Virus genome (UHGV): UHGV-0041589
Strand: one strand, 5' to 3'
DNA: 20,735 nt
From: a virus
The first letter of the stretch is position 1; the number at the start of each line of letters is the position of its first letter. Of the stretch, positions 1,581 to 16,648 are shown one piece after another. Both the position numbers and the translations under genes were made by a program. The notes under the pieces were generated by a model. That model was not told the origin of the DNA, made no database searches, and saw only the letters and a list, made by a program, of their open reading frames with translations.

Positions 1581-1777
1581 TACTGGCTGCGACACTTTTG
1601 AATAAAAGCGTCGACATTTCGGCGCTCATAACGAACTACTTTTGCACTGAAACGAATTGGTGCCAGGATAGCCCGATGACGATGCTTAATATTCCACTCA
1701 CATAGCGTTTTCTGTGTAATACCTAACTTTTGGCATACTTCATCTGGGGTGAGTAAATCGTCGGGTTTCTCGCTCAT
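1577..1777 (-). CDS. AlpA/excisionase-like HTH DNA-binding protein (candidate Xis)
   Basis: 66 aa; LLTPDEVCQKLGITQKTLCEWNIKH...VRYERRNVDAFI matches the AlpA/excisionase HTH pattern. Start ATG overlaps the helicase stop (ATGA). Converges on the integrase stop. Confidence 0.65.
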   Translation of the reverse strand: MSEKPDDLLTPDEVCQKLGITQKTLCEWNIKHRHRAILAPIRFSAKVVRYERRNVDAFIQKCRSQY

Positions 1778-3168
1778 GCTATACCTCTCTTTTTCATGGC
1801 ATCGAGCAGGATGTCCTGCACTGTTCGTTTTGAGTTGCGCCGCTCCATCACCATTTCGTCCATAGTGTCGGCCGCAATAATGTGGTGAATAAATACCGGA
1901 CGATTGTGTCCGGCCTGTATCTGCCTGGTGGGGCCGATACGTTCAATAATTTGCTGATACTGCTCCAGGTCCCACCAGTGTGAGAAAAATACCAGTATGT
2001 TTCCGCCGTCCTGCATGTTCAGACCGTGGCCCGCGCTGGCTGGGTGTGCAAAGAGAACAGGAATCTTTCCGGAATTCCAGTCGCGCAGTGTCTGTGGATC
2101 TTGGTCGAGGTGACGACCGCGAGGGAATGCTTTAAGCAAGCGTTCAAGATCGTGTTTCCAGTGATAAGCAACCAGCACAGGTGCGCCAGCTGCTTCGGTC
2201 AGTATGCTGTCCAGCGCTTGTAGTTTGGTGTCATGCAGTTCTGACCAACTTCCGGTGTCGTCTGTGTATACTGCGCCACTGGCGATTTGCAGACACTTCA
2301 GTGTCTTTGCCGCGGCGTTTGGTGCTTCGATGCCTTCGCCGTTCAGCTCGAGGAACATTTCCTTTTCCATTTCACGATACTGCTGACGGGCCTTCGGCGG
2401 CATATCCACGCGGATTACGTTATGGATGGGGTCTTTGATATCGAACCAGTCGGCCGCATCCAGCGAGAGGGTCACATCGGCTAACGCTCGCTGTATTTCA
2501 GCATGTGAGTGAGCAAACGGCTCCAGTTTGGTCCAGCTCTGCCCCGGAAACTGTATCGAGTTGAACCAGCGTGAGGTAAACGCGCCGTAAGTGCGCCCGA
2601 GACGTTGCCCCTGGTCCACAAACCACAATTGTCCCCACAAATCTACCAGGCCGTTCGGTGCTGGCGTACCGGTGAGATTTATCCAGCGCTGGACATACTT
2701 ATGCGCCACTTTGCCCAGCGCCGCCGCGCGCTTACCACCACCTCGCAGCCGGAAGGATTTTAGCCGGGTGCTTTCATCTGGAATGACAGTACCGAACGGC
2801 CATCGTTCTCCCAATTCCTCAACCAGCCAGACAAGGTTATCGTAGTTGATGGTGAACACGCTCGCGTTGCTGTTCGCCAGCGCTGCAGAGCGTGCTTTGG
2901 CGTTACCAACAATCGGCTGCACCTCGATATTGCGCAGATGCCCCCATTTCAGCGCTTCATCCGGCCATGTGCTTGCTGCAACGCGTAGGGGCGCGAGGAC
3001 CAGCGCGGGCTGTGTCTCTGAGCCCGCCATGAAAAGATCTTCCAGCGTGGTGAGTGTCGCTACGGTTTTACCCATCCCCATCCCTGCCCAGATGTTGCAG
3101 CGGTGAATGTCGATTTCGTGGTTGATAATTAGATCTTGGTAGGGGCGAGGCGTGAAAACTTTGGGCAT
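1774..3168 (-). CDS. SNF2-family DEAD/DEAH-like helicase
   Basis: 464 aa; RPYQ motif, Walker A GMGKT, DEST box (IPDESTRLK), C-terminal helicase motif HPASAGHGLNMQ. Confidence 0.85.
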   Translation of the reverse strand: MPKVFTPRPYQDLIINHEIDIHRCNIWAGMGMGKTVATLTTLEDLFMAGSETQPALVLAPLRVAASTWPDEALKWGHLRNIEVQPIVGNAKARSAALANSNASVFTINYDNLVWLVEELGERWPFGTVIPDESTRLKSFRLRGGGKRAAALGKVAHKYVQRWINLTGTPAPNGLVDLWGQLWFVDQGQRLGRTYGAFTSRWFNSIQFPGQSWTKLEPFAHSHAEIQRALADVTLSLDAADWFDIKDPIHNVIRVDMPPKARQQYREMEKEMFLELNGEGIEAPNAAAKTLKCLQIASGAVYTDDTGSWSELHDTKLQALDSILTEAAGAPVLVAYHWKHDLERLLKAFPRGRHLDQDPQTLRDWNSGKIPVLFAHPASAGHGLNMQDGGNILVFFSHWWDLEQYQQIIERIGPTRQIQAGHNRPVFIHHIIAADTMDEMVMERRNSKRTVQDILLDAMKKRGIA

Positions 3169-3202
3169 AATGTAACCCTTTAAAATTCAGGAGGATTGTT
3201 TA

Positions 3203-3523
3203 ATGGCTACTTTGTTAACATCAGGGTTAACTGTTCCGGAGTATTACAAAAATGGTGGAGTGCTCGACTTTGAACTGGATGCTTTAGAGGTGGGCGGGAA
3301 TAGCACTGATTTTGAAAATTACCCTTCACTGGTAAACATTCTTTCTAAAGGTTTCGAGCTTCCTGCTACATCTATGGTTAGCGATCCAAAATTTTTAGCC
3401 CCAATACTAGTTTATGGGGACTTCTGGACAAAACTTCATGCTTATACTTATGCCATGGGCGGCTCCGTTGTATATAAGCAATTACCTTCTGGACGGTATC
3501 ATGCCAGATGTGAGTGGCATTAA
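3203..3523 (+). CDS. Hypothetical protein (106 aa), AT-rich moron antisense to the surrounding operon
   Basis: Strong RBS (AGGAGG) 7-8 nt upstream of ATG 3203. Visibly lower GC than its neighbours. Diverges from the helicase start (3168) and overlaps the C5-MTase stop by 3-4 nt. No recognisable motifs. Confidence 0.6.
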   Translation: MATLLTSGLTVPEYYKNGGVLDFELDALEVGGNSTDFENYPSLVNILSKGFELPATSMVSDPKFLAPILVYGDFWTKLHAYTYAMGGSVVYKQLPSGRYHARCEWH

Positions 3524-4548
3524 ATAAGGTCGTATCCTGCGCATTCCATAAACGAGCGGATGAATGTTGCGGCAGCTGGTGCGACTATCGCGTTGCCGTA
3601 GGCGCGCAGTCGTCCCACTCTGGAGGTAATCCCATTAGCCAACGGGCATGTGCCGGATTCAACTGGCCGCCAGCGACCATCCCGGCAGAGGAGCCAGTCA
3701 GCACCATCCCAGCAGCCGTTAATCGTATTGGGCCGCAGATTCTCGCAGCGCCGCCGAGGGTCGTTCCCCGTTCGGTATGATTGGCCGCTGCGCCCTCGGC
3801 ACGAACTTGGTTGTTGTCGATCGTCGTCACTGTCGGCCATCCCGCTAATCTGGATAGTCCCGCTAAGGTTTCTAGACCGCGTTTTGTCTCCGGCTGTGGG
3901 TTTGTGTTGCAGGTTGGGGTGTACCACCCCGCTAGGTGAGCAAAATTCCGCAGGGAGCTGTGTAGCGTGTTGCCGGACGGTCGACGATCTCCAGACATCT
4001 TCCTCAATGCTATTGAGGCGCTTTCGCCACCGCTGTGATCGCTCGCCGCTGGCGTCGGCCACCCAATACGCTCTATCTCGGATATGCGGGGCACCGACGC
4101 CCGCAGCCGGAAACGGGACAAGCCCAAAGGCGTAGTCCACTGCTTCCACGTCAGTTTGTACAAGATCGAACCAGGCATTGACTCCCGCAACCTGTTCGCC
4201 AAATACCAGCTTAGGGCGTCGCTCGCTGATGAGGTGGAATAGTGCTGGCCATAGGTGCCGCTCGTCATCAAACCCAGCGCCTTTACCAGCCGAGCTGAAA
4301 GGCTGGCACGGGCAACTTCCTGTCCAGACCGGTTTGTTATCCGGCCATCCGGCCAGACGCAGAGCATAAGACCAGACGCCGATCCCGGCGAAGAAATGGC
4401 ACTGTGTGAATCCGCGCAAGTCGTCTGGTGCGACATCTTCGATACTCCTTTCATCAACTTCACCCGGGGCGATATGACCTGCAGCAATAAGGTTACGCAG
4501 CCATTGTGCTGCGTTAGGGTCTATTTCGTTGTAATAGGCTCCCCGCAC
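3520..4548 (-). CDS. DNA (cytosine-5)-methyltransferase
   Basis: Motif I FAGIG, catalytic motif [14 protein letters not shown]-like FGEQV, C-terminal AYGNAIV. Arg-rich central variable region consistent with a target-recognition domain. Confidence 0.85.
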
Positions 4549-4817
4549 AATATCCCCTCCAGATTTTTGCTATCTAATACCACCACGGTAAAGCCCAACG
4601 CGCGCAGCCGTTCGTGCTCGCGTAACTGGTCAGGCCGTGGTGGTTTGCTTGGCGCTTTGCATTCGACAAAGACGATGCGACCGCCGGGTAGCAGGACAAT
4701 GCGATCCGGTACCGAGCGGCGACCGGGTGACACGAACTTAAAGGCGACCCCGCCAGCCTTTTTCACTTCGGCGACGAGGTGCTTTTCGATAAGGCTTTCA
4801 CGTTCGTAGGCCATCAT
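4521..4817 (-). CDS. VRR-NUC domain nuclease
   Basis: Start chosen at the internal ATGATG (4817..4812) because ATG 4817..4815 overlaps the upstream MTase stop TGA 4816..4814; the longer ORF to 4940 would overlap the MTase out of frame. Pattern VAFKFVSPGRRSVPDRIVLLPGGRIVFVECKAP...LREHE matches VRR-NUC. Confidence 0.75.
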   Translation of the reverse strand: MMAYERESLIEKHLVAEVKKAGGVAFKFVSPGRRSVPDRIVLLPGGRIVFVECKAPSKPPRPDQLREHERLRALGFTVVVLDSKNLEGILCGEPITTK

Positions 4818-5296
4818 TCCACACCTTTGACGAAAATAACCCAGTGGGTTTTGTCGGCTTTTCCGGTTCGTTGCCATATGGCCGGCTTCTCGTCGGTCAG
4901 CGCCAAGATATTGCTTACCGGGATCTGCGTTTCGTTCCATTTGAATATGAGTACACCGTGGGGCCGCAATACCCTGAATGCTTCGGCGAAGCCGTCGCGA
5001 AGATCATCGCGCCATGTTTCTTTGTTGAGCCGCCCGTACTTTTTCCTCATCCATGCGTTATCGCCGACGCGCTCGAGGTGCGGCGGATCGAAAACGACGA
5101 CAGGGAAAGTGTTATCGGCAAAGGGAAGGGCGCGGAAATCAGCTATAAGGTCCGGACTTATAACCAACTGGCGACCGTCGCAAAGCTCATGCTGCTCGGC
5201 GCGGATATCACTGAACACGGCGCGCTTGTCCTCCTTGTCGAACCAAAACATACGAGAGCCGCAGCACATGTCAAGAATGGTCTGCTCACAAGTCAT
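4814..5296 (-). CDS. DNA amino-methyltransferase (N6-adenine or N4-cytosine type; DPPH motif)
   Basis: 160 aa; SAM-binding motif I-like LDMCCGS followed by VVVFDPPH (motif IV). Motif order I then IV. Confidence 0.7.
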   Translation of the reverse strand: MTCEQTILDMCCGSRMFWFDKEDKRAVFSDIRAEQHELCDGRQLVISPDLIADFRALPFADNTFPVVVFDPPHLERVGDNAWMRKKYGRLNKETWRDDLRDGFAEAFRVLRPHGVLIFKWNETQIPVSNILALTDEKPAIWQRTGKADKTHWVIFVKGVE

Positions 5297-5507
5297 CGCT
5301 CACCGCCTTACGCTTTTCGCGCATGTTCTGCATCAGACAAAAATCAGACCGGCGTTCGCTCCAGTCCTGATTCAGTTCGTTACGTGACTGGCGGTTAGCC
5401 TTGGCCCAGACCTTCGCTGCCCGGTCATATTCGCCGGACTGCTCAAGGCGCAAGGCCTCCCTCGCAGCCCGGTAATAAAGCGGACTGTCCCGATATTTAA
5501 ATGACAT
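5286..5507 (-). CDS. Small protein (73 aa), possibly ANR-family-like small regulator
   Basis: Start at internal ATG 5507 with RBS AGGAG 8 nt upstream; the longer ORF to 5633 would overlap the upstream gene. AAKVWAKA...NELNQDWSERRSDFC resembles the ANR small-regulator pattern as I recall it; unverified. Confidence 0.5.
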   Translation of the reverse strand: MSFKYRDSPLYYRAAREALRLEQSGEYDRAAKVWAKANRQSRNELNQDWSERRSDFCLMQNMREKRKAVSDDL

Positions 5508-5512
5508 AGGGG

Positions 5513-5716
5513 TTACTCCTGCTTTGCTTCGATTGGGCGGATGCTGCTCAGCACCAGACGAGTGCGGACACCGACAGCACCACCGCGGCGGCCAGTGTCT
5601 TTGTAGTAATACTCTTTTGGGCCAGCCACCCACGTTGTCGCGTTTTGATGCAATTGCACCTGCTTTTCACCGGTGCGGGTAATAACCGTTCCGGTATGCG
5701 TTTTGATTACAGTCAT
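5513..5716 (-). CDS. Hypothetical protein (67 aa)
   Basis: ATG 5 nt after the PolA stop, AAGGA about 9 nt upstream; stop TAA 6 nt before the next start. Tight operon packing supports it being real. Confidence 0.5.
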   Translation of the reverse strand: MTVIKTHTGTVITRTGEKQVQLHQNATTWVAGPKEYYYKDTGRRGGAVGVRTRLVLSSIRPIEAKQE

Positions 5717-5721
5717 AGCGA

Positions 5722-7785
5722 TTAATCCTTACGGTAGTGGTACGCCTCAAAACCGCCAGCGTTCAGTGGGATATCGGGCGCCCATTCGGGGTTAGTGGAG
5801 AGAAGCGCGGAAAGCGCTTTATCGTTGAAATCTTCTGTGTCAGGTGCTTCGGTGATCACCTCGTCGTGTACCGTCAGCACAATGCTGTAACCGGCATCTT
5901 CGATAAGCGGCATGTTTCCGGCCAGAACGTCGCGGGCGGCCGCCTGGGTGACGTTCTCTACCAGCTTTCCGCCGTAGGTTTTGAGTCGTTGCCATTTACG
6001 CGAATAAGAGTTAACACCCATATAGGTGATATTCCCTTTTTCGATAACCGGAGAGGGGTAGCATACAGCGCGTCCGGATGGTAGCTGTATGCGCAGCCAC
6101 GCGCCATCGCGGCGGATTTTAAGATAACCGCAATACAATGTTTTTTGCGGTGTGGCGATTGCAGTGCGGACGGTGCGCTCCAGTTCGTACCAGAAATCGC
6201 AGGTCGCCGGGTGCGCCCTGCGCCACAGGCGCTTGAGCGAGTCACATGCGATGAATACACGCTCGGACAGGCCAAAGGTCGACTTACGTTTAACCGATTC
6301 GTTGTACCAGCTTTTCGCCTCGCGGATAACATCGCGGGGAATGTTTGGCAGTGCGGCGTTCGCCAGCTCGTCGAGATCGAGACCGTAAACCAGAGCAAAA
6401 GTGATGAAAGCCGATACACCACCTCCATAACCCAGACCGAGTTCCATGACTTTACCGATCTGACGCATGTGTTTATCAACATCATCTGGTGCAATATCGA
6501 AAGCTTTTGCATACGCCAGTTTATATAAGTCCGGACCCGTTCCGGCGTCGTACTCTCTGAATGCATTCAGTTTCCATTCTTCTCCCGCCAGCCATGCCAG
6601 CATACGGCCTTCAATGTTCGACAAGTCACTTACCACCAGTTTTTTGCCTGTTGGCGCGATAATGCAGCCACGTAACGCTGAACTGGTTAGTTCCATGATA
6701 TTGTCAAACAGCAGGTCTGCACATCCGGCTTTCAGTGCTTCGATGCCTTCGTCTATTTGTTCCTGTTTTAGTGAAGGGCGGGGAAGGTTCTGGGGCTGGA
6801 ATAGCCGTCCGGCCCAACGACCGGTACGTGACGCCCCGCAGAACTGTAGCGTACCGCGTAAGCGCCCGTCGTGGCTTACGCCTTTCATCAGTGCCTTGTA
6901 TTTACTGGTGCTGGTAGTACTGGCCTGCAGGCGGATAGCCAGCAGTTCTTTCACGGCAGATGGTAAATCGGGGTCGGCTATACGACGTTCCAGAGTACTG
7001 CGTTGCATGTCTGGTAGCTCCACACCGTAGGATTCAACGATGTGCTTAATCAACGCGTCCCGTTGTGTTGCTGCCTGCACTTCGCCATCAGTCATTTCCT
7101 GTGTACGCTTTGCCAGGCGCTTTTGCTCCTGGTCTACCGCTTCGATCGCAGCGCGCGCGAGTTGAATGTCCATGCAGACGCCCCGGTCGTTGATCTGCTG
7201 ATCACGATGCCAGAGCGCCAGTTCTGTCCCCTGATAATTCCACTTCGGCAGACGTTTATAGACTTCGCGCATTGCCTCGATATCCAGTCCGGCGTAAGCA
7301 ACAAAGCGCCGCCATTCTTCCGGGTGGGTTTTGCTGGTGGCCCGGCGCAGTTTGCTGTTTTTCGGGCGTGGCTTACAGAACAGCTGGATCAGCGCTTTAC
7401 CTTCTTTGTCCTTCGCTTTGTCTTGCGGGACGCCTAGTACTTCGCAGAGTTCCCCCAGAGACCCCGGGAGACCGTGCGCCAGCGCCTGCACCATTGTGTC
7501 GCGCCAACGTTCGACTGGCGGTGCCAGGCGCGGCATTGCATAACGCAGGACGGTGCGGTCGAAGTGAGAGTTATGAAAATAAAGCAGGGTTTCAGGGGCT
7601 GCGATTGCTTCGTATAAGCCGTGTGGAATACCACCACCGGCAGTGATATCCCACACGTTTACGGGCTCGTCGTTGATAGCCCATGCGAACAGCATCACTT
7701 CAACGCCTTCGGCATACGCATGGGTACCGTTCGTAATAGGGATTTCGCAATAGGTTTCTAGGTCACCCCATAGTATATTGGACAT
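5722..7785 (-). CDS. Family-A (Pol I-like) DNA polymerase with N-terminal 3'-5' exonuclease domain
   Basis: 687 aa; exo motif LWGDLETY near the N-terminus, motif [17 protein letters not shown], motif C LTVHDEV. Confidence 0.9.
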
Positions 7786-7841
7786 AAAATAACCTTGTGT
7801 GATATATGGTTATGTAGGTGTAAATAAACAAGGAGACGGCG

Positions 7842-8111
7842 GTGTTTAGCTTTGGTATCGGAATACTTTCATTGATAGGTATTATTGCTTTCCCCATTCT
7901 TTATATTTTAGGGAGAATAGTTCGGGCTGGTGGCGCATGGCTCGAACGTGAAGAAGGTCCTAAGGATCGTGTTCTTCCCAAAATTATAATTTTTGCGCTT
8001 ATTGGGTTCTTTCTTGGGTGTTTGGCTCAGCCTGTATGGGACAGCATTTCGGTATGTAGAGACTATGGCAATCCAATAGGGAAATGTCTTTTTAAATTCA
8101 ATGAATTTTAA
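7842..8111 (+). CDS. Small membrane protein (89 aa, two predicted TM helices), AT-rich accessory gene
   Basis: GTG start 5 nt after AGGAGA RBS (7831-7836). Two hydrophobic stretches (about residues 2-24 and 47-65), Cys-containing C-terminal tail. AT-rich codon usage. Opposite strand to the surrounding operon. Confidence 0.6.
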   Translation: MFSFGIGILSLIGIIAFPILYILGRIVRAGGAWLEREEGPKDRVLPKIIIFALIGFFLGCLAQPVWDSISVCRDYGNPIGKCLFKFNEF

Positions 8112-8178
8112 TTTTTAGTATTGCGGTAGGCTGGTTTGGATAACTATTTTCTTAAGCCAGCCTTTGTTATAAGAAATA

Positions 8179-8832
8179 TTAAGCATCTACCCCTTCGTCA
8201 GAAGGGAGGCCGATCATTTCGTTGAGAGTTTCGCGTCGTATAGCTGGCGGAAGCGGAGCAGATGGTGCATCGGCTGGCAGAAGTTCTTTAGCTTCAGGCC
8301 ACTCTTCCAGCAGGCGCTTAACTGTGCGCACTTTACTGAGTGCAGCGCTGACATTCTGTCGAATGTCTGACTCATCGCTCTGTATCTGCTCATAAAGTGT
8401 ATCAAACCCGTAAAACTCTGTAACTAGAGGGTCATTTGCCAGAAGGGTAAATTCCCCCGGCGCGATTTTGTGAATATGGTCTGGTGACCCTGATTCATAT
8501 CCTCGGTAGTTACCGTTGAAATAGACGGTAACCCGAGAACCTGCCAGATTCAGACACATGTAACACTCTTCCCTGATAATGTTATTGGCGGTTTTTAATG
8601 CTTCGGGGAATTTTGATACCAGTGTTTCTATTTTTTTTATATTTTTTAATATTTCAGCTTCTTTCTCTACGCCCCCGATAGCTGCAAGCCGAACACGTTC
8701 GGCCCATTCAACACGAGCAGCTCGTAGTGCTGATTTACGTTTGGGGATACCCGCTTTCTCAAGTGCGTTATTGATGATTTGAGTTTTAAGGTAATTAGTT
8801 AATACGGGCTGTGACATTATTCTTTCCCTCAT
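8179..8832 (-). CDS. Hypothetical protein (about 212-217 aa); start ambiguous (ATG 8832 or ATG 8817)
   Basis: Long ORF with lower GC than the core replication genes; Lys/Glu-rich helical N-terminal half, no recognisable catalytic motif. Both candidate ATGs have a GA-rich SD-like sequence upstream. Confidence 0.55.
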   Translation of the reverse strand: MRERIMSQPVLTNYLKTQIINNALEKAGIPKRKSALRAARVEWAERVRLAAIGGVEKEAEILKNIKKIETLVSKFPEALKTANNIIREECYMCLNLAGSRVTVYFNGNYRGYESGSPDHIHKIAPGEFTLLANDPLVTEFYGFDTLYEQIQSDESDIRQNVSAALSKVRTVKRLLEEWPEAKELLPADAPSAPLPPAIRRETLNEMIGLPSDEGVDA

Positions 8833-8868
8833 GAGATCCCCCAGCACGCAGCTGGGGGATGAATATTT

Positions 8869-9417
8869 TTAAATTAGTGCTTCAGCATCAGCACCTTCGC
8901 TGATATCGTCGAAATCGTCAGCGCTTGCCACTCCGCCGCCAGCGAATGCATCGCCGTCTCGCAGGAACTGGACTCCGCCGAGTGAGGCATTAATGCGTTT
9001 ACCGAAATTATTGTCCTGTGCCCAGATATCGATAACGGCGTTTACATAGCACCCTGCATAGGGACGTCCATCAGCCTGAATTAGTGGCGAACGATCGCGA
9101 TCAAGAACAGCTGGGCGCGCTTTGTTAGCAGCGTTCAGGAAGAAATTGCCGGGAAAGCCTTCATACTCTGCTTTTTCATCACCATCATGCAGGCACAGAT
9201 TGAGTTTTTTCTCCAGCTGGTTATAAATGGACTCCCACTTCTCCCCCCATTTTTCCTTCGCTACCTGCTTCATAGCTTTACGGATTTCTTCCAGTTGTGG
9301 GTGTTTGGGAGACATTAAAAATACTGCGGAGAAACGCGGATCGCCTTCGCCGTTTACAGTTTTAGCTTCAAACAGAGACGGGAAGGCCAGACGAACATTG
9401 TTCAGCTTCAGTTTCAT
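8869..9417 (-). CDS. DUF2815-like protein (putative phage ssDNA-binding protein) with acidic SSB-like C-terminal tail
   Basis: 182 aa; N-terminus MKLKLNNVRLAFPSLFEAK; C-terminus DDFDDISEGADAEALI. AAGGA RBS 9 nt upstream. Stop is 13 nt after the DUF2800 gene. Confidence 0.7.
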   Translation of the reverse strand: MKLKLNNVRLAFPSLFEAKTVNGEGDPRFSAVFLMSPKHPQLEEIRKAMKQVAKEKWGEKWESIYNQLEKKLNLCLHDGDEKAEYEGFPGNFFLNAANKARPAVLDRDRSPLIQADGRPYAGCYVNAVIDIWAQDNNFGKRINASLGGVQFLRDGDAFAGGGVASADDFDDISEGADAEALI

Positions 9418-9432
9418 GGGGATTTCCTTAAA

Positions 9433-10734
9433 TCAGATGAGGTCTGCGGTTAGCGTATCGTCGGATACGTCGTCGAAATCATTTACAGGGTTGATATTGA
9501 GTGCGGGGCGTGGGTCTGACTCGGGAACGACGGTGGGTTTACCATCAGCTCGTGTTATCAGTGCCTCGACTTTTGACCAACGGCGCGGACTGGCCTTTTT
9601 GATAAGTTTTTCGGCTTTTGTGGGACTAATAAGTTTAAAGTCGAATACTTCTTCAGTTTTGTACCTGAACTGGTCCTTCAGAAGTGCGCGAGCTGCCTCT
9701 TCATCACTCCAGGCCCGGTTACCTTGTTTTCCTGTTACCAGTTTAAACCCCGGTACCGGATGTCCGGCATTGAGTTCATTGTGAACCCGGTCCCGTACTG
9801 CCTTTAGCCAGGACTCAATAAAGTCGGTCTGGCTATAGATCTCCGCAAGCTGCTCAATGGTTAACAGAGGTACACGTGCGCTGGCATTGGTGATTATTTC
9901 GCTGACAGGCTTTGTCAGATCTTCAAAGTCGCTGGCCGCTGTTTGTAAATGCTGCATTTTCTGGGCAGTGCAAATAGCTTTTGCTTTACAGAAGCGGCAC
10001 TGTTTTTCTCCAGGTATGAAGTTTTCCAGCGGTAGTGTCTCAATGCCTTCGCATTCAGCAATATTGAGAACAAGGATCGCACTGGTTGCGGCCTCCTGTG
10101 CCCGTTCACCGAACGCCTGGAGCTCTTCCACCGTCAGAGCCCACTCTGAAACGTGGTTAAGCCGCGGCTGGTGAATAAATAATCTTACAGTCTCAAAGTC
10201 ATACAGCATGCTGAATTGTTCGAGCGCACCCAGAGCATACAGTTGTAGTTGCTCATTTTGTTCTGCATCAATGCGGACGCCTTTGCCATATTTCAGGTCG
10301 TGGATTTGTAATTCGCTACCAGCAATGATTATGCTGTCGGCAGTTCCGAAAGATTCTTCCACACCCGTTATATGGGAGAAGTCGACACGCTGCTCGACCA
10401 GCAGCTCATTGCCCTGCGCCAGCGCCCAAACAGTGTCGACGTAACGACCAACGGCTTCGACCATTTCCTCATCTACCTGCGGGCCGGAAGTATCATCCGG
10501 GTGCTCAGCAAGAGGATAGGATCCAAGGAACATCGCGACGTTGCAACCTGCATAGTGCTCCGGGTGGCTCTGGCGGTTGCGCAGCACCTTTTCGGCAAGT
10601 GCATGCGCTGCAGTGCCCTCGATTGCAAAAGTTGTTTCTTTATCCGGTTGTGTGGCCTCCAGCGCCAGACTTCCTGGGCAGCGCATCCATCGATGCGCTG
10701 ATGATGGAGAAAGTTGTGCATGAACGTCTGGCAT
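9433..10734 (-). CDS. DUF2800-like PD-(D/E)XK nuclease (Cas4/RecB-like, Cys-cluster)
   Basis: 433 aa; N-terminal [16 protein letters not shown]-terminal [13 protein letters not shown] cysteine cluster (Cas4-like Fe-S arrangement), acidic tail [25 protein letters not shown] lies inside the upstream gene's 3' end. Confidence 0.8.
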
Positions 10735-10736
10735 GA

Positions 10737-11639
10737 TTAACCCTCCAGTGCTTTTTCAGCCAGGGTGATTACTTCAGCGAGATTTTCATCCGTTACTTCA
10801 CCAAGTTTCCTGGCTCCCTGTTTTTCCAGAATTGCAATAGCTTCTGCCCGGTAACCCCCTTTTGCTAACTGGAGGATCAACCCTTCAGCTTGTTTGCGTA
10901 GTGCCGCGAAATCAATTGTATGGTCATCTTTGGCGTCATTATTCTGGCTGGAATTTGCTGCGTCTCTGCGTGCAAATTCTTCCTGCAGCTGAAGGTACTC
11001 AACACGGTTGATCTCGATATGGCCTTTTTTAAGCATCTCGTTCAACTTGCGTAAGGTATGGAGTTCACTGGCTGCTGTGCCGGATACATTTTTGACGTAA
11101 AACGGCCCCGTGCGTTCTCCATCTTTGTTACTGGCCTTTTTCGGCTTAACTTCATCACGCCCATCTGCAGGTGCATCAAGTAGCTGCTCGGCAAAAGCAC
11201 GTCGCTCGCCGATGGTTGGCAGGTCGTCCCAGAACTTAAGGATGTTACGGGACAGGTCCAGGAGAGCAGGTTTAAGCAGCGCCCTGGCTCGTTTGACGCC
11301 CTGCAATGCGCTGTCGAGAGCATCAATCTGAACAACTCGTTTATCGCCTTCAGCATCACGGTAGGCAACAGCACGTTGCAGCATGTCTTCTGTGATAGGG
11401 GTGGCTACCGGGTAGAAACCAGCCAGTGCGATAACGTCGCTGAACTCCAGATCATCCAGTGTCATTGCCGCTGACATATTTTCAGTTTCAGTTGCTGTAT
11501 CCCGACATTCCTGCACTCGTGAAATCGTGTCAGGATGCATAACAATGCCTGATGCCATTGTGCGGATAAGACGTTCAAGCAGCGCATTATGTTGTGCCAG
11601 AAGTTGATTATTAAGTTCTAGACTGGTTTCTAAACTCAT
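10737..11639 (-). CDS. Hypothetical protein (300 aa), helical and coiled-coil-like
   Basis: Long ORF; start ATG overlaps the upstream stop (ATGA); stop TAA 2 nt before the DUF2800 start. No motif recognised. Confidence 0.65.
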
Positions 11640-12418: not shown

Positions 12419-13042
12419 CTAACGTTTACGGCGGTAAATACGGTGTTCGATCATTACACCTATGATCTGTAAGTTCATATCTGCACTACGAAAAATAGGG
12501 TAATCAGGATTTAGGGGGATTAATTCAAAGTCGTCGATGCCGATTCCTAATGGACGGTATTTTTTAAATGTAGCTTCGTGACCGTCGTTTTTGGCGACAA
12601 CAAACTCCCCTGGTGCAGGACATAGATCAGGATCGATGATAACAATGTCTCCTTCTTTAAACTCTGGTTGCATGCTGTCGCCATCGATACGTAATGCGAA
12701 GCATGTTTCTGGAATGTCAGAGTCTGCCAAAATATATTCAAATTCCCCTGTCAGATCTGTTATGTCTCTTGCTTCTGTAAGCTCTCCTGCCTGAACGTAA
12801 CTTAATATAGGTATGCGTCTGGTACTTATCTCCGCGAGAGGCATAATATTTTTACCGTTCAGTAGCCAGTCTGGGCTACATTTCAAGGCCTTAGCCAGAT
12901 CCAGAAGATTGCGTGGCTTTCTGGTTCGTCCACTTTCGATGGATTCTATGGATTGTTGGCTAACCCCTGCAGAATTCGCTACTTCCACTTGAGTCATTCC
13001 TAATTCCAAACGACGTGCTTTAAAACGGGCTGCGAGAGACAT
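12419..13042 (-). CDS. CI-like prophage repressor (XRE-type HTH + S24 LexA-like autopeptidase domain)
   Basis: Start at ATG 13042 with AAGGA 8 nt upstream (longer ORF to 13093 lacks an RBS). N-terminal HTH LGMTQVEVANSAGVSQQSIESIESG; Ala-Gly cleavage site (YVQAGE); catalytic Ser in GDSM and Lys in FKKY. Confidence 0.85.
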   Translation of the reverse strand: MSLAARFKARRLELGMTQVEVANSAGVSQQSIESIESGRTRKPRNLLDLAKALKCSPDWLLNGKNIMPLAEISTRRIPILSYVQAGELTEARDITDLTGEFEYILADSDIPETCFALRIDGDSMQPEFKEGDIVIIDPDLCPAPGEFVVAKNDGHEATFKKYRPLGIGIDDFELIPLNPDYPIFRSADMNLQIIGVMIEHRIYRRKR

Positions 13043-13162
13043 GGGATTAGTCCTTCTGGGTTGTATTAATGTGTATCCCCACATTAAAAACAATTTTTGT
13101 TGTATTTGACAAACCTCGTTTGTTGTTGCTAAATACCACTAAAATTGTATGAGGTGAAAGCA
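13043..13162. promoter_or_regulatory. Divergent immunity-switch intergenic region (candidate rightward and leftward promoters and operators)
   Basis: Perfect -35 TTGACA at 13106-13111 with a weak -10 (TAAATA, about 13130-13135) oriented toward cro. Repeated GTTGTATT motifs (13060-13067, 13099-13106) and inverted repeat TTGTATTAATGT ... ACATTAAAAACAA (13061-13093). Minus-strand -35/-10 candidates for the repressor. Confidence 0.45.
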
Positions 13163-13375
13163 ATGACCTTAGCGACCCGAGTAAAAGAACGACGTAAAGA
13201 ACTCAAAATGACGCAAGTTACGTTGGCTGAGCTCACAGGAGTGAGCCAGCAGGCAATAAACAGAATTGAAAGTGGTGTTATTGCTCGGCCACGTTATCTT
13301 CTTGAAATGTCTATAGCATTGGATTGCGACCCTAATTGGCTGTTGTATGGCTCACAAAACGATAAAAAGGCTTAA
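13163..13375 (+). CDS. Cro-like XRE-family HTH regulator (70 aa)
   Basis: ATG 13163 with GAGGTG 6 nt upstream (the ORF track's TTG at 13145 is less likely). HTH QVTLAELTGVSQQAINRIESG. Divergent from the repressor. Confidence 0.75.
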   Translation: MTLATRVKERRKELKMTQVTLAELTGVSQQAINRIESGVIARPRYLLEMSIALDCDPNWLLYGSQNDKKA

Positions 13376-13378
13376 CCC

Positions 13379-15571
13379 ATGTCCGATAGCAAACCATGGG
13401 GAGCTACGCCTGATGAGTGGTTTCATTTCGACCTGGTATTGGGGAGAACTGATCATCTTCTCCCAGTTGTATGTAACCCCAGTGCGACCATATCCCCTGA
13501 TAGTAAACTGAAAGCGTTGGGTAAGACGCCGAGTCGCTATAACCGGGACCGCCAGGTCACCGGTATTGCTCAATGGACCGGGCATGTTGTTACTGAGCAT
13601 GATTTTGCCCGCTGGTCGAATGAACCGGATTATGGCATCTGCGTGCGTACAGGCCATGGCTGGCTGGCGCTGGACTGTGATAGCGAAGATGAAGACATTC
13701 AGGCAGATATTCGCAAAACGCTTGTGCAACTTCTGGGTGAGTTGCCGCCGCGACGCTGGCGAGCAAACAGTAATAAGTGTCTGTATCTGCTGGCCGTTGA
13801 TGGTGATTTCCGTAAGCGTATCCATCGCCTGGCGGGGGATATGGGCATTATCGAGTTGCTGGCGAACGGGCAGCAGTTCGTTGCCTGCGGTACGCACAGC
13901 AGCGGCGCGCGTATTGAATGGGACGGCGGTTTGCCGGATGAACCTCCGGCTATTACTGGTGAGCAGCTTGAAACGCTGTGGCAGCGCCTGGCTGAACAAC
14001 TCCCTGTGTCGGTAACCACCGAAGCGGGCAACACGAAGATGCGCGACCGATCAGCATTCACGCCCGGCGCGACGGATGATACAGCTGAATATCTTGATGC
14101 CAATGGCTGGACGCTGCTGGATGGCGCAAATGGTGAACGATATATCCGCTGTCCGTTTGAAGACGGCCACAGTAGCGGGGGCGATCCAACAAGCACAGTT
14201 TATTTTCCTGCGGGAACCGCGGGCTTTGAGCAGGGGCATTTTAAATGCCTGCATGCCAGTTGTGCGCATCGTGATGACGGAGATTTCCTTAATGCCATCG
14301 GGATCCGCAACGACGATTTCGAAGATCTGACCAGCACCGAAGTGGCGGAACCTTTACCGCTGCCTGCTTTCGAGCGTGATAAATGGGGGCGTATCGAGGC
14401 AACAATCAGCAACGCAGCCAAAGCAGTAGTACGCCCTGATTTTGTGGACATCGATATTCGCTTTGACCAGTTCCGCGACGAAATCATGTTTGCCCCTGCA
14501 GGATCCGGACAATGGCGGGCATTCACCGATGCGGATTATGCGCGCCTGCGCATCACGATGGAAAAGCGGGGATTTAAACCTGTTGGTCGTGAACTTATTC
14601 GCGATGTGGTGTTACTTGCAGCCGATGAACAACCATTCGATTCAGCGATCACTTGGCTGAACGGACTGGAGTGGGATGGCGTGCCGCGCATCGAATGTTT
14701 CTACCATACGCACTTCGGTACCGCCGACACGCCTTATACCCGTGCGGTGTCTATGTACATGTGGACCGCGTTGGCGGGGCGAGTACTGGAGCCAGGCATC
14801 AAAGCGGATATGGTGCCGATCCTCGTTGGTCCGCAGGGCTGCGGTAAGTCTTCCGGAGTGGAGGCACTGAGCCCTGATCCTGCGTTTTTTACTGAAATCT
14901 CTTTTGCCGAAAAAGACGATGATCTCGCTCGAAAAATGCGTGGTCGGCTGGTGGCAGAGATTGGTGAACTGCGCGGACTTAATACCAAAGAGCTGGAGTC
15001 AATCAAAGCGTTTGTGACGCGTACTCACGAAAACTGGATCCCGAAATACCGGGAGTTCGCCACCCAGTTTCCTCGTCGCCTGGTGTTCGTTGGTACCACC
15101 AATGAGGACGAATTCCTTGCGGACAAGACTGGTAACCGTCGCTGGCTCCCCGTGGAAGTGTCGAAAGTCGACGTGAAAGCGATAAAAAGAGATCTCCTTT
15201 TACTTTGGGCTGAGGCTCGTGAGGTGTTTCAGCGTCTGGGGGGTATCCAGTTCCGTGAGGCTGAACAACTGGCAGCGAGTGTCCATGAACAGTACACCAT
15301 CAAGGATGCTTGGCTTGAAACGGTAGAGAAATGGCTCGACACGCCAGACCTGATGACTAATGAACTTCCGCGAAATTGCGAATTTTTACGCGCAAGTGAT
15401 GTTTTGCGTGATGCGATTGGGCTAAATCCTGACCGCATCGGAAAACGCGAAGAAATGCGAATTAGTAATGTTTTGCAAAATTGCGGGTATAAGCGTGCCC
15501 AAAGGCGAATTGGGGGGAAAATGACTCGAATTTTTGAGGCGGTGTCCCAACCTGTACCAACCTCAAAATAG
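13379..15571 (+). CDS. DNA primase: N-terminal prim-pol domain fused to a C-terminal VirE/D5-like P-loop NTPase
   Basis: 730 aa; N-terminal bifunctional primase/polymerase-like region; Walker A GPQGCGKSSG and downstream Walker B-like acidic motif typical of P4/VirE-type primase C-terminal domains. Confidence 0.85.
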   Translation: MSDSKPWGATPDEWFHFDLVLGRTDHLLPVVCNPSATISPDSKLKALGKTPSRYNRDRQVTGIAQWTGHVVTEHDFARWSNEPDYGICVRTGHGWLALDCDSEDEDIQADIRKTLVQLLGELPPRRWRANSNKCLYLLAVDGDFRKRIHRLAGDMGIIELLANGQQFVACGTHSSGARIEWDGGLPDEPPAITGEQLETLWQRLAEQLPVSVTTEAGNTKMRDRSAFTPGATDDTAEYLDANGWTLLDGANGERYIRCPFEDGHSSGGDPTSTVYFPAGTAGFEQGHFKCLHASCAHRDDGDFLNAIGIRNDDFEDLTSTEVAEPLPLPAFERDKWGRIEATISNAAKAVVRPDFVDIDIRFDQFRDEIMFAPAGSGQWRAFTDADYARLRITMEKRGFKPVGRELIRDVVLLAADEQPFDSAITWLNGLEWDGVPRIECFYHTHFGTADTPYTRAVSMYMWTALAGRVLEPGIKADMVPILVGPQGCGKSSGVEALSPDPAFFTEISFAEKDDDLARKMRGRLVAEIGELRGLNTKELESIKAFVTRTHENWIPKYREFATQFPRRLVFVGTTNEDEFLADKTGNRRWLPVEVSKVDVKAIKRDLLLLWAEAREVFQRLGGIQFREAEQLAASVHEQYTIKDAWLETVEKWLDTPDLMTNELPRNCEFLRASDVLRDAIGLNPDRIGKREEMRISNVLQNCGYKRAQRRIGGKMTRIFEAVSQPVPTSK

Positions 15572-15586
15572 AGGTTGGTACATTTT
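15553..15586 (+). terminator. Strong hairpin + T-tract overlapping the primase stop codon
   Basis: Perfect 12-bp inverted repeat TGTACCAACCTC (15553-15564) / GAGGTTGGTACA (15571-15582), loop AAAATA containing stop TAG 15569-15571, followed by TTTT (15583-15586). The arms also carry the iteron core, so it may double as a protein-binding site. Confidence 0.55.
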
Positions 15587-15607
15587 AACTAATTGAATTT
15601 AAAGGCC

Positions 15608-15800
15608 AGTACCAACTGTACCATCTGTACCAACCTAATTACTAAGAACCCCATATATATATATAAGTCGCTTGGGGAAAAGGTTTGAAAAGAGCTGGTA
15701 CAGGTGGGTACAGGTTGGTACAGGCCGAACAAGGAATTTTTTGCACATAACAGCGTGTAATAAGCGAATCGGAACTGCGTTATCCACACCCACGGATAAA
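15608..15800. repeat. Candidate origin of replication: tandem iterons flanking an (AT)n tract plus a perfect DnaA box
   Basis: Three direct repeats with 9-bp period containing GTACCA (starts 15609, 15618, 15627); ATATATATATATA at 15653-15665; three inverted-orientation repeats GGTACAGG with exact 10-bp period (starts 15697, 15707, 15717); TTATCCACA at 15780-15788 paired with inverted GGATAA at 15794-15799. ORF-track ORFs 15589..15867(-) and 15672..15860(+) crossing this region are judged spurious. Confidence 0.55.
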
Positions 15801-15852
15801 CAAACGTGGTTCTCAGAAAATTTTTTCGTAGCAAAACGTAGAGGTCAGAGCT

Positions 15853-16275
15853 ATGCGTAATATTCAACAGGTTTTAGAGCGCTGGGGTGGCTGGGCAGCG
15901 AGTGAAGGTGGTAGTGTCTACTTTCCTCCTGTTGCAGCCGGGTTTAAGAATCTGCTACCCGCGACGCAGTCTGGAAGGCTGAAATGCAGTGACAATGACG
16001 GTCTTATCATCAACTCCGCTATGAGCTGCCTGAAGAAAAAAGATCCGTATCTGTGCACGCTCCTTGAGTGGCATTACGTCCAGGCCATGCCCGTGCGGGC
16101 GATGGGTGAGAAGCTCGGCGTATCTCACACCCACGTTCTGAAGAGGCTTCAGGCGGCAGAGGGATTTATTGACGGTTGCTTAGCCATGCTGGATGTGGTG
16201 CTCGAAATGGATCAGTCGGTTCAGTCAAAGCCTCAGGCTATCAGGACTTTGCGTAGGAGCTGCTCGGCGGCATAA
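15853..16275 (+). CDS. Q: Late-gene antiterminator, Q-family (phage 82/21-type)
   Basis: 140 aa; N-terminus MRNIQQVLERWGGWAA and C-terminal HTH-like MGEKLGVSHTHVLKRLQAAEGFIDGCLAMLD match the Q-type antiterminator pattern as I recall it. Confidence 0.75.
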   Translation: MRNIQQVLERWGGWAASEGGSVYFPPVAAGFKNLLPATQSGRLKCSDNDGLIINSAMSCLKKKDPYLCTLLEWHYVQAMPVRAMGEKLGVSHTHVLKRLQAAEGFIDGCLAMLDVVLEMDQSVQSKPQAIRTLRRSCSAA

Positions 16276-16306
16276 TATCCAGCAATCAATCACGTAAGGG
16301 AACCAG

Positions 16307-16648
16307 ATGGCTCTGATCAGCGTTCGCAACAGATTTGAAAGCTTCATGGAACAGAGGTACCCAGACCTGTCGTTGCAGGTCAAAGGTAATATTAGCGCAT
16401 CAATGAAGGCTCAACTTGGCATCAGGATTGAACGAGAATTGTACAGTGAAGATGTTACTTACTGTGATTCAGCAGTTCAGTTGATGTGGACACTCTTTCA
16501 GGCAGGTGTTCTGGCCGAACGAAGAGCTACCAGCGTTACGCTTCCTGCGCTGAAGGCAAAGCCGGATAGCTTCTACGATGCGGGTTATAACGAAGGTATT
16601 CAGGACTGTCGTAAACATCTGACGGCATCAGGCATCAAGGTAAGATAA
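16307..16648 (+). CDS. Hypothetical protein (113 aa) immediately downstream of Q
   Basis: ATG with AAGGGA RBS, 31 nt after the Q stop; followed by a terminator. No motif recognised. Confidence 0.55.
   Translation: MALISVRNRFESFMEQRYPDLSLQVKGNISASMKAQLGIRIERELYSEDVTYCDSAVQLMWTLFQAGVLAERRATSVTLPALKAKPDSFYDAGYNEGIQDCRKHLTASGIKVR

What the first reader, a model, noticed from the sequence alone, without database searches (positions are those of the whole stretch)
15551..15800. Plasmid-style iteron origin downstream of the primase gene: 8 copies of a TGTACC/GGTACA core, (AT)6 tract and a perfect DnaA box
Directly after the primase stop: a 12-bp perfect inverted repeat with the iteron core; three 9-bp-period direct repeats; a 13-nt alternating AT tract; three 10-bp-period repeats in the opposite orientation; then TTATCCACA, the consensus DnaA box, paired with an inverted GGATAA 8 bp away. 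Iterons, an AT-rich unwinding element and a DnaA box together are the textbook layout of theta-type plasmid and lambdoid origins. Here it sits next to a prim-pol/VirE primase rather than an O/P or Rep initiator, which raises the question of what binds the iterons.
Basis: seen in the sequence. Interest (0 to 1): 0.6.

Follow-up and report, generated by a model that had tools for sequence, protein, structure and literature searches.

The report
Phage replication origin read by its own helicase
The repeats after the primase gene are very probably this E. coli prophage's replication origin, of the kind known from staphylococcal pathogenicity islands, where the primase-helicase itself binds the repeats; the DnaA box next to it is most likely incidental.

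Summary
With the better-defined 8-mer GTACCAAC (one mismatch allowed) there are nine copies in 178 bp, against about 0.1 expected. They flank an (AT)6-containing core, and one perfect DnaA box lies 58 bp further on.

About 100 related loci keep the same layout at fixed offsets from a conserved core: two direct copies plus one inverted copy at the primase stop, then three direct copies, the core, and three inverted copies. The repeat sequence comes in at least 11 types.

Repeat type tracks a seven-residue stretch, G713 to F719, in the primase-helicase C-terminus. Mutual information with repeat type peaks at residues 715 and 716 over the whole protein. Proteins 99.9% identical over residues 9-700 carry different repeats, and proteins only 52% identical there share both the repeat and the stretch.

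The protein's helicase part is homologous to SaPI1 Rep (PDB 7PDS). Its C-terminus models as a winged helix, with residues 715-716 in the wing.

The region is therefore a SaPI/PICI-type origin for a self-loading helicase, here in a complete temperate phage. The DnaA box travels with one allele of the Q-upstream segment and is absent from every locus with another downstream gene.

This is a new member of a known kind, of moderate interest.

The parts
13379..15571 (+). Gene for the 730-aa primase-helicase initiator (PriRep-like). [quoted passage not shown]
   Evidence: Pfam VapE-like domain, E 2.3e-60. PHROG DNA helicase and primase families. A profile of the family hits SaPI1 Rep, PDB 7PDS, at E 9.5e-46 over residues 376-662. 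The AF2 model matches 7PDS, and its N-terminus matches the pRN1 and NrS-1 prim-pol domains.
15296..15541 (+). Coding region for the C-terminal winged-helix domain (residues 640-721), the predicted origin-binding domain.
15515..15535 (+). Codons for the wing heptad G713-K-M-T-R-I-F719, the stretch that co-varies with iteron type. M715 and T716 are encoded at 15521-15526.
   Evidence: Mutual information with iteron type peaks at residues 716 (2.26 of 2.86 bits) and 715 (2.09 bits) over the whole protein. The mapping from heptad to iteron type is close to one-to-one. These codons do not overlap iteron DNA.
15544..15561 (+). Outer iterons 1 and 2: GTCCCAAC at 15544-15551 and GTACCAAC at 15554-15561. 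They are direct copies 10 bp apart and lie inside the last codons of the primase gene.
   Evidence: They sit at the conserved offsets -105 and -95 from the core in relatives of all iteron types.
15574..15581 (-). Outer iteron 3 (GTACCAAC on the minus strand). It forms the 12-bp inverted repeat with iteron 2 across the stop codon. In this phage a TTTT run follows.
   Evidence: It sits at the conserved offset -75. The scan flags the pair as terminator-like, but the T run is not conserved in relatives.
15609..15635 (+). Left inner array: three direct 9-bp iterons, GTACCAACT, GTACCATCT and GTACCAACC.
   Evidence: They sit at offsets -40, -31 and -22 from the core in all related loci, with no gaps in the register.
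15636..15693 (.). Conserved core, TAATTACTAAGAACCCC-(AT)6A-AGTCGCTTGGGGAAAAGGTTTGAAAAGAGC, with the alternating AT run at 15653-15665. This is the predicted site of DNA melting.
   Evidence: It is nearly invariant across phages whose iterons differ. GC content falls to 0.33-0.38 here.
15694..15721 (-). Right inner array: three inverted iterons with a period of about 10 bp. On the minus strand they read GTACCAGC, GTACCCAC and GTACCAAC.
   Evidence: They sit at offsets +45, +55 and +65 in relatives.
15780..15799 (+). A perfect DnaA-box consensus, TTATCCACA, with an inverted GGATAA. It is adjacent to the origin but probably not part of it; it belongs to one allele of the segment upstream of Q.
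   Evidence: Its distribution follows the Q-upstream allele and is independent of iteron type. The homologous positions in sister alleles are TTACCCACG, TTAACCACG and TTACCTATG.

Best explanation
The stretch 15544-15721 is the replication origin of this temperate E. coli prophage. It is of the SaPI/PICI 'self-loading helicase' type.

Proposed mechanism (every step here is inferred):
1. The 730-aa primase-helicase encoded just upstream binds the nine 8-9-bp iterons through its C-terminal winged-helix domain. The wing, around residues 713-719, reads the variable part of the iteron.
2. Because the two inner arrays point in opposite directions across the core, protein assembles on both sides of it.
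3. The (AT)6 core melts.
4. The SF3 helicase rings load themselves onto the DNA.
5. The fused prim-pol domain makes primers.
6. The phage's own family-A DNA polymerase (5722-7785) extends them.

Host DnaA is not expected to be needed.

Shown here:
- the repeat architecture and its statistical excess;
- its conservation in register across about 100 loci;
- the co-variation of iteron type with a seven-residue protein stretch;
- homology of the helicase part to SaPI Rep;
- a predicted winged-helix fold for the C-terminus.

Inferred only: binding, melting, helicase loading and independence from DnaA.
For: 1. Excess. Nine iteron copies lie in 178 bp against 0.1 expected.

2. Conserved architecture. 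In 85 of 101 loci, iterons sit at fixed offsets from a conserved core: -105, -95, -75(inverted), -40, -31, -22, then +45, +55 and +65 (all inverted). The primase stop codon, by contrast, drifts from -53 to -175. More distant relatives keep 9-bp triplets flanking an AT-rich centre. These include Yersinia YeP4, APSE-2, Caulobacter phage RapA, and loci from Gilliamella and Burkholderiales.

3. Concerted change. At least 11 iteron types exist. All copies in one origin change together while the core between them stays the same.

4. Co-variation with the protein.
- Each iteron type goes with its own heptad. Examples: GTACCAAC with GKMTRIF, GGAACCAC with GKKCKVW, TAGACAAC with GKQQRVF, TAGACCAC with GKQIRVW.
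- Mutual information peaks at residues 715-716 out of 730.
- Pairs of different type reach 99.9% identity over residues 9-700. Pairs of the same type fall to 52% there yet keep the heptad.
- Window and L030 DNA are identical up to codon 714. They then differ from there through the iteron arrays (the core between them differs at only a few positions) and become near-identical again about 40 bp past the last iteron.

5. The immunity repressors are not the determinant. Loci with Cro and cI at least 97% identical to the window's carry GGAACCAC iterons, and GTACCAAC loci carry other Cro and cI.

6. Homology and fold. The helicase part is homologous to SaPI1 Rep (Foldseek). The C-terminus models as a winged helix that resembles the Rep1 chain.

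7. Match to the published SaPI origin. That origin has 6-12 iterons immediately downstream of rep, an AT-rich centre, and iterons on the two sides pointing in opposite directions. Its Rep binds the iterons through a C-terminal winged-helix domain and needs no loader (PMC9371898). The same organisation is functional in E. coli PICIs (PMC6092414).

8. Association with the helicase half. Relatives with a different N-terminal primase domain keep this origin layout.
Against: - There is no experimental evidence here for replication, binding or melting.
- The heptad lies only about 10 bp from the first iteron, so some of the co-variation could come from physical linkage within a recombining block. 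Arguing against that, the core between the arrays is conserved and the heptad is retained in backbones only 52% identical.
- Iteron 'types' are not fully discrete. Some origins mix variants at positions 2-4.
- APSE-2 breaks the simple rule that F or W at residue 719 goes with A or C at iteron position 6.
- The iterons are 8-9 bp, not the 5-6 bp of SaPIs.
Confidence: 0.8

Rival explanations
1. One reading: a DnaA-assisted origin of the plasmid or lambdoid theta type. Iterons, an AT-rich unwinding element and the DnaA box would act together, and the host DnaA, DnaB and DnaC would be recruited.
For: A single perfect TTATCCACA lies 58 bp from the last iteron, and only about 0.002 are expected in this intergenic region. 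It is retained in 20 of 26 loci with this Q allele.
Against: - The box is absent from every locus with another downstream gene, although those loci keep the full iteron and core layout.
- Homologous Q-upstream segments carry 2-4 mismatches at this position, and the GGATAA partner becomes GGAGAG.
- YeP4, APSE-2 and RapA show no such box.
- No lambda O/P-like or RepA-like initiator is annotated in the prophage.
- The initiator is an SF3 helicase homologous to SaPI Rep, for which no loading partner has been identified (PMC9371898).
Confidence: 0.05
2. The array is mainly a transcriptional control element between the early operon (cro-primase) and Q. The hairpin at the stop codon would terminate transcription, and the repeats would be operators flanking a promoter in the AT-rich core. 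They could be bound by the primase C-terminus (autoregulation) or by another regulator.
For: The inverted repeat followed by TTTT scores as terminator-like. The core contains TTACTA-N17-TATAAG, which resembles a promoter by eye. Origin iterons in plasmids often double as operators (general knowledge).
Against: - The consensus scan finds no sigma-70 promoter in 15572-15852.
- The T run after the hairpin is missing in the GGAACCAC, TAGACAAC and TAGACCAC types.
- The array is independent of the downstream gene, which may be Q, several unrelated small ORFs, or terS in RapA.
- Iteron type is uncoupled from Cro and cI.
Confidence: 0.1
3. The repeats serve some other DNA transaction, for example a partition (centromere-like) site, a packaging site or a recombination site.
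For: Clustered short repeats around an AT-rich centre also occur in plasmid centromeres (general knowledge). One 76.9-kb circular 'plasmid' record carries this phage region.
Against: - No partition genes are annotated nearby.
- The terminase genes lie 3 kb away.
- The integrase and attachment site are at the other end of the window, which starts near the integrase at the yfhL junction.
- Co-variation is with the helicase C-terminus.
Confidence: 0.03

Closest known systems
SaPI / PICI Rep (or Pri-Rep) with its ori: self-loading SF3 helicase initiators of phage-inducible chromosomal islands (PMC9371898; PMC6092414)
   Same: - The initiator's helicase core is homologous (7PDS, E 9.5e-46).
- The C-terminal domain is a winged helix.
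- The origin starts immediately at the 3' end of the initiator gene.
- Two iteron sets in opposite orientation flank an AT-rich centre.
- Allelic initiator and iteron specificities exist.
- The primase is fused to the helicase, as in SaPI5 PriRep5 and the E. coli PICI Pri-Rep.
   Different: - The host element is a complete temperate phage with its own PolA and its own lysis, packaging, head and tail genes. It is not a satellite.
- The iterons are 8-9 bp at a strict 9- or 10-bp period, not 5-6 bp.
- There is an extra outer group of three iterons (two direct and one inverted) overlapping the stop codon.
- The core is conserved in sequence, not merely AT-rich.
- The primase domain is of the AEP prim-pol type.
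Bacteriophage P4 alpha protein with ori and crr
   Same: One polypeptide combines primase, SF3-type helicase and a C-terminal origin-binding domain that recognises octamer iterons. This rests on general knowledge; PMC6092414 names alpha and its cognate ori.
   Different: - P4 needs a second, distant cis element (crr). Here everything is contiguous with the gene.
pRN1 ORF904 and phage NrS-1 prim-pol-helicase proteins
   Same: The domain order is the same: N-terminal AEP prim-pol, then an SF3 helicase. The N-terminal domain of the model matches 1RNI, 3M1M and 6A9W. In pRN1, 166 bp downstream of orf904 is essential for replication (PMC4234260 abstract).
   Different: The archaeal plasmid element has not been shown here to have a comparable iteron array. 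Sequence identity is only 12-14%.
SV40 large T antigen and papillomavirus E1 origins
   Same: These are SF3 helicase initiators that recognise short repeats arranged in opposite orientations around a region that melts, and they load themselves as hexamers (general knowledge).
   Different: Their origin-binding domain is not a C-terminal winged helix, and there is no sequence relationship. This is an analogy only.
Iteron plasmids (RepA/pi/TrfA type) and lambda ori
   Same: Both have iterons plus an AT-rich unwinding element.
   Different: - The initiator there is not a helicase.
- DnaA boxes and host helicase loading are integral to those origins. Here the box is not conserved.
- Lambda's iterons lie inside the O gene.

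Membership tests
SaPI/PICI-type Rep-ori replicon (self-loading helicase origin) | The initiator is an SF3 helicase homologous to SaPI Rep. | tested here: met
   A profile of the family hits 7PDS (SaPI1 Rep) at E 9.5e-46 over residues 376-662. Foldseek gives E 1.5e-12. Pfam VapE domain at E 2.3e-60.
SaPI/PICI-type Rep-ori replicon (self-loading helicase origin) | The initiator has a C-terminal winged-helix domain. | tested here: met
   [not shown]
SaPI/PICI-type Rep-ori replicon (self-loading helicase origin) | The origin lies immediately 3' of the initiator ORF, with two iteron sets in opposite orientation flanking an AT-rich centre. | tested here: met
   for the window. Searches show the same layout in register in 85 related loci.
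SaPI/PICI-type Rep-ori replicon (self-loading helicase origin) | Each initiator allele has its own cognate iteron sequence. | tested here: met
   Iteron type co-varies with residues 713-719, and mutual information peaks at 715-716. The window and L030 differ by a natural cassette swap. This is comparative evidence, not a binding assay.
SaPI/PICI-type Rep-ori replicon (self-loading helicase origin) | The Rep-ori segment drives autonomous replication, and Rep binds and melts the origin. | not testable with these tools
   This needs cloning, EMSA and footprinting.
PICI (the satellite element itself) | A small island that lacks its own virion and lysis genes and depends on a helper phage. | tested here: not met
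   The element carries PolA, holin, lysozyme, terS, terL, portal, head and tail genes. It is a complete prophage, so only the replicon type is shared.
DnaA-dependent iteron origins (theta plasmids, lambda-like) | DnaA box(es) are a conserved, integral part of the origin. | tested here: not met
   A perfect box occurs in 21 of 83 loci, all with one Q-upstream allele, and in none of the roughly 50 loci with other downstream genes. Sister alleles carry 2-4 mismatches.
DnaA-dependent iteron origins (theta plasmids, lambda-like) | The initiator is a RepA-type protein or a lambda O/P pair. | tested here: not met
   None is found among the Pfam or PHROG hits of the neighbouring genes or in the RefSeq annotation of the prophage.
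P4 alpha / ori-crr | Sequence homology to the alpha protein, and a second cis element (crr). | tested here: not met
   [not shown]

The most novel reading that the evidence does not exclude
A stretch of about seven residues in the wing of the C-terminal winged helix (715-721) acts as a swappable 'address label'. It moves together with the nine iterons as one small cassette. This would have produced at least 11 mutually orthogonal initiator-origin pairs on otherwise near-identical replication proteins.

There may also be a simple readable rule: F or Y at residue 719 goes with A at iteron position 6, and W goes with C.

The diversification would be driven by the need for co-resident prophages and satellites not to fire, or hijack, each other's origins. 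One Xenorhabdus genome carries two related prophages with different cassettes.
Probability: 0.45. Interest if true: 0.55.

Novelty: new member of a known kind. Interest (0 to 1): 0.4.

Why it matters
- It places the origin of a widespread family of Enterobacterales prophages. The family includes uropathogenic E. coli prophages and the APSE phages of the aphid symbiont Hamiltonella.
- It shows that the origin design described as peculiar to PICI satellites (PMC6092414) is also used by complete temperate phages that carry their own polymerase. That bears on where satellite replicons came from.
- The natural set of near-isogenic initiators with different iterons is a ready-made system for two uses. 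One is working out how a winged-helix wing reads DNA. The other is building orthogonal replicons.
- It corrects annotation. The DnaA box should not be used as an origin marker here, and ORFs called across the core, such as APSE-2 'P4', are doubtful.

Tried and rejected
- Rfam scan of 15450-15900 at E up to 1: no hit, so no known RNA lies here.
- Promoter scan: no sigma-70 match in the intergenic region. The TTACTA-N17-TATAAG seen by eye lacks the required T at position 6 of the -10 element.
- Hairpin as a conserved terminator: rejected, because the T run is absent in several iteron types.
- Protein tail encoded by iteron DNA (residues 722-730, VSQPVPTSK) as the specificity determinant: rejected. 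GTACCAAC origins also occur with proteins that end right after the wing, at ...RIFEPV, with the stop codon at -104.
- Cro or cI as the iteron binder: rejected.
- Core as a recognition site for the prim-pol domain: not supported. Relatives with a different N-terminal domain keep a similar core. YeP4, whose N-terminus is similar to the window's, has a different core.
- Megablast of the region against phage records gave only the YeP4-6 primase and Q-gene hits. A distant blastn of the origin found only APSE records and one 'plasmid' record, none annotated as an origin.
- A literature search for a described APSE origin found nothing specific.
Full report
**1. The observation**

- A perfect 12-bp inverted repeat (15553-15564 and 15571-15582) spans the stop codon of the 730-aa ORF 13379-15571.
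- Three direct copies follow at 9-bp spacing, then a 13-nt alternating AT run (15653-15665), then three inverted copies at 10-bp spacing.
- TTATCCACA lies at 15780, with an inverted GGATAA 8 bp further on.

The exact hexamer GGTACA occurs 7 times in this stretch, out of 14 in the window. The better-defined unit is the 8-mer GTACCAAC. With one mismatch allowed it occurs 9 times in 15544-15721 and 12 times in the other 20.5 kb. That is 0.10 copies expected, Poisson P about 3.5e-15. The ninth copy, GTCCCAAC at 15544, lies inside the coding sequence.

**2. Context**

The window is a prophage integrated next to yfhL. The searched stretch 13000-16400 is 100% identical to E. coli F11, BH100 and other strains, and is present in 145 of 5426 complete E. 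coli genomes. The gene order is:
- integrase, SNF2 protein, methyltransferases, VRR-NUC, family-A DNA polymerase, Nmad5, DUF2815 and a DUF2800 exonuclease;
- a cI-like S24 repressor (minus strand) and a Cro-like HTH protein;
- the primase-helicase and then the 281-bp gap that holds the finding;
- antiterminator Q, holin, lysozyme, terS and terL, followed by head and tail genes.

It is a complete temperate phage, not a satellite.

**3. The same architecture elsewhere, with different repeats**

Yersinia phage YeP4 has a primase 74% identical in protein. Downstream of the stop codon it shows the same layout, but the repeat is AGACAACCT.

I collected 24 genomic and 80 IMG/VR loci that encode relatives. 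In 85 of 101 usable loci a core of the form CCCCA(TA)nAAG anchors the array. Iteron 8-mers sit at fixed offsets from the first C of that core:
- -105 and -95 (direct), and -75 (inverted);
- -40, -31 and -22 (direct);
- +45, +54 or +55, and +64 or +65 (inverted).

The primase stop codon, in contrast, lies anywhere from -53 to -175. The array is therefore positioned relative to the core, and the ORF simply runs into it to a variable extent.

The core and most spacers are nearly invariant. The iterons fall into at least 11 types: GTACCAAC, GTCCCAAC, GGAACCAC, GTAACCAC, GTATCCAC, GTTACCAC, GAAGCCAC, TAGACAAC, TAGACCAC, GTAACAAC and GTAACCAA.

More distant relatives at 37-58% identity keep triplets of 9-bp repeats on one side of an AT-rich centre and inverted copies on the other. 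These are APSE-2, Caulobacter phage RapA, and loci from Gilliamella, Burkholderiales and Symbiopectobacterium.

**4. What binds the iterons**

Each iteron type goes with its own heptad after the conserved 'RRxxGK':

| Iteron | Heptad |
|---|---|
| GTACCAAC | GK(M/V)(T/V)RIF |
| GTCCCAAC | GKKMRIF |
| GGAACCAC | GKK(C/S/R)K(V/I/L)W |
| GTAACCAC | GKVQRVW |
| GTATCCAC | GKVLKVW |
| GTTACCAC | GKLMKVW |
| GAAGCCAC | GKMTKAW |
| TAGACAAC | GKQQRVF |
| TAGACCAC | GKQIRVW |
| GTAACAAC | GKSQRVY |

- Across an alignment of 71 distinct full-length proteins, mutual information with iteron type peaks at residue 716 (2.26 of 2.86 bits) and residue 715 (2.09 bits).
- These codons (15521-15526) do not overlap iteron DNA. 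The overlap starts at codon 722.
- The tail encoded by iteron DNA is dispensable. Several GTACCAAC origins go with proteins that end right after the wing, at ...RIFEPV.
- Phylogeny does not explain the pattern. Pairs with different iterons are up to 99.9% identical over residues 9-700. Pairs with the same iteron fall to 52% there yet keep the heptad.
- Window and L030 DNA are identical up to codon 714. From there through the iteron arrays they differ, apart from the near-identical core, and identity resumes about 40 bp past the last iteron. This is a natural cassette swap.
- Iteron type is uncoupled from Cro and cI.
- The caveat is physical linkage, since the heptad lies about 10 bp from the first iteron. 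Against linkage alone, all nine copies change together around an unchanged core, and the heptad persists in very divergent backbones.

**5. The protein**

Pfam finds only the VapE domain in the window's own protein, while close relatives also score Prim-Pol. A profile of the family hits one relevant solved structure, 7PDS, at E 9.5e-46. That entry is SaPI1 Rep bound to DNA (PMC9371898).

The full-length AF2 model has pLDDT 67.7, with weak linkers. It matches 7PDS over the whole Rep chain, and its N-terminus matches the prim-pol domains of pRN1 ORF904 and NrS-1.

**6. The DnaA box**

A perfect box is present in 21 of 83 loci. All 21 carry the same Q-upstream allele, and 20 of the 26 loci with the window's Q protein start have it. 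None of the roughly 50 loci with a different downstream gene has a box within one mismatch, whatever their iteron type.

In sister alleles of the Q-upstream segment, the homologous nonamer reads TTACCCACG, TTAACCACG or TTACCTATG, and GGATAA becomes GGAGAG. The box therefore belongs to one allele of the neighbouring module. It is not a conserved component of the origin. It may be fortuitous, or it may have a local role I cannot assess.

**7. Rival readings**

- Known RNA: no Rfam family matches.
- Promoter or terminator: no sigma-70 promoter is predicted in the gap. The stop-codon hairpin scores as terminator-like in this phage, but its T run is not conserved. A terminator role is at most a local extra.
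- Regulatory array near Q: the array follows the primase gene regardless of the downstream gene, which argues against this.
- Link to the primase domain: relatives in Photorhabdus, Xenorhabdus and APSE have a different N-terminal 310 aa. It gives only a weak PriCT_2 match and no Prim-Pol match. They keep the helicase, the C-terminal domain and the origin layout. The origin therefore goes with the helicase and C-terminal half.

**8. Comparison with what is known**

The published SaPI origin has 6-12 iterons immediately downstream of rep and an AT-rich centre. At least two iterons on each side point in opposite directions. A C-terminal winged-helix domain of Rep reads them, and no separate loader is known (PMC9371898). 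[quoted passage not shown] A 2026 paper reports a SaPI5-like iteron origin next to a self-loading helicase in a lytic Enterococcus phage (PMC13517437).

The present case meets every sequence-level criterion of that replicon type. The element itself is not a PICI. It differs in these respects:
- longer iterons at a strict 9- or 10-bp period;
- an extra outer group of three iterons overlapping the stop codon;
- a sequence-conserved core;
- an AEP prim-pol fusion;
- residence in a complete phage with its own PolA.

**9. Verdict**

This is a real origin-like array and very probably the phage origin (confidence about 0.8). It is bound by the primase-helicase's own winged-helix domain. It is a new member of a known kind, of moderate interest (0.4).

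The most interesting residue of the analysis is the compact, swappable specificity cassette and its apparent rule: F or Y at residue 719 goes with A at iteron position 6, and W with C. This holds for 11 of 12 types, with APSE-2 the exception.

Noticed in passing
L107 (APSE-2, EU794049) 3158-3379: The annotated 'P4 conserved hypothetical protein' lies across the AT-rich core and the right iterons of the same kind of origin (iteron GTAACAACC). It is probably a spurious ORF call. The APSE origin also has an extra inverted-repeat pair on the right side, which makes it more symmetric.
   Followed up: partly
L012 and L013 (both from Xenorhabdus yunnanensis XENO-10): One genome carries two related prophages with different cassettes: GTAACAAC with GKSQRVY, and GTAACCAC/GTATCCAC with GKVCKVW. 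This fits selection for replicons that do not cross-react.
   Followed up: no
L011, L012, L025, L107 (N-terminal about 310 aa of the initiator): Relatives in Photorhabdus, Xenorhabdus and APSE have a different N-terminal domain (weak PriCT_2 match, no Prim-Pol match) fused to the same VapE helicase and C-terminal domain. They keep the origin layout and a similar core.
   Followed up: partly
L109 (Enterobacter sp. E76 'plasmid' pE76_003, CP042502) 6830-9300: A 76.9-kb circular record filed as a plasmid, with no replicon type assigned, carries one copy of this phage's replication, lysis and packaging region with a GTAACCAC origin. It could be an extrachromosomal phage form, a phage-plasmid or an assembly artefact.
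   Followed up: no
window 15089-15100: GTTGGTACCACC holds two overlapping iteron-like 8-mers, one an exact GTACCAAC on the minus strand. It lies inside the primase gene about 450 bp upstream of the origin. It could be chance.
   Followed up: no
window 15542-15568: The last nine codons of the primase gene (VSQPVPTSK) are encoded by iteron DNA. In relatives the stop codon drifts, so the tail varies from absent to more than 20 residues. It appears dispensable for specificity.
   Followed up: yes
L055, L004 (origins of the GTATCCAC and GAAGCCAC types): Within one origin the outer and inner iterons can differ at positions 2-4. In L055, for example, the outer copies are GTAACCAC and the inner copies GTATCCAC. 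Recognition therefore tolerates some variation, and the 'types' are not fully discrete.
   Followed up: partly
window 15583-15608 (minus strand, about 15586-15600): The AT-rich spacer between the outer and inner iterons contains ATTCAATTAGTTA, one mismatch from the IHF consensus WATCAANNNNTTR. This was seen by eye only. The spacer is conserved in many iteron types but replaced in others.
   Followed up: no
window 1774-11639: The replication and modification module is unusually rich for a lambdoid-looking prophage. It holds SNF2, a Dcm-like cytosine methyltransferase, a second SAM methyltransferase, VRR-NUC, PolA, an Nmad5 'nucleotide modification' protein, DUF2815 and a DUF2800 exonuclease.
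   Followed up: no
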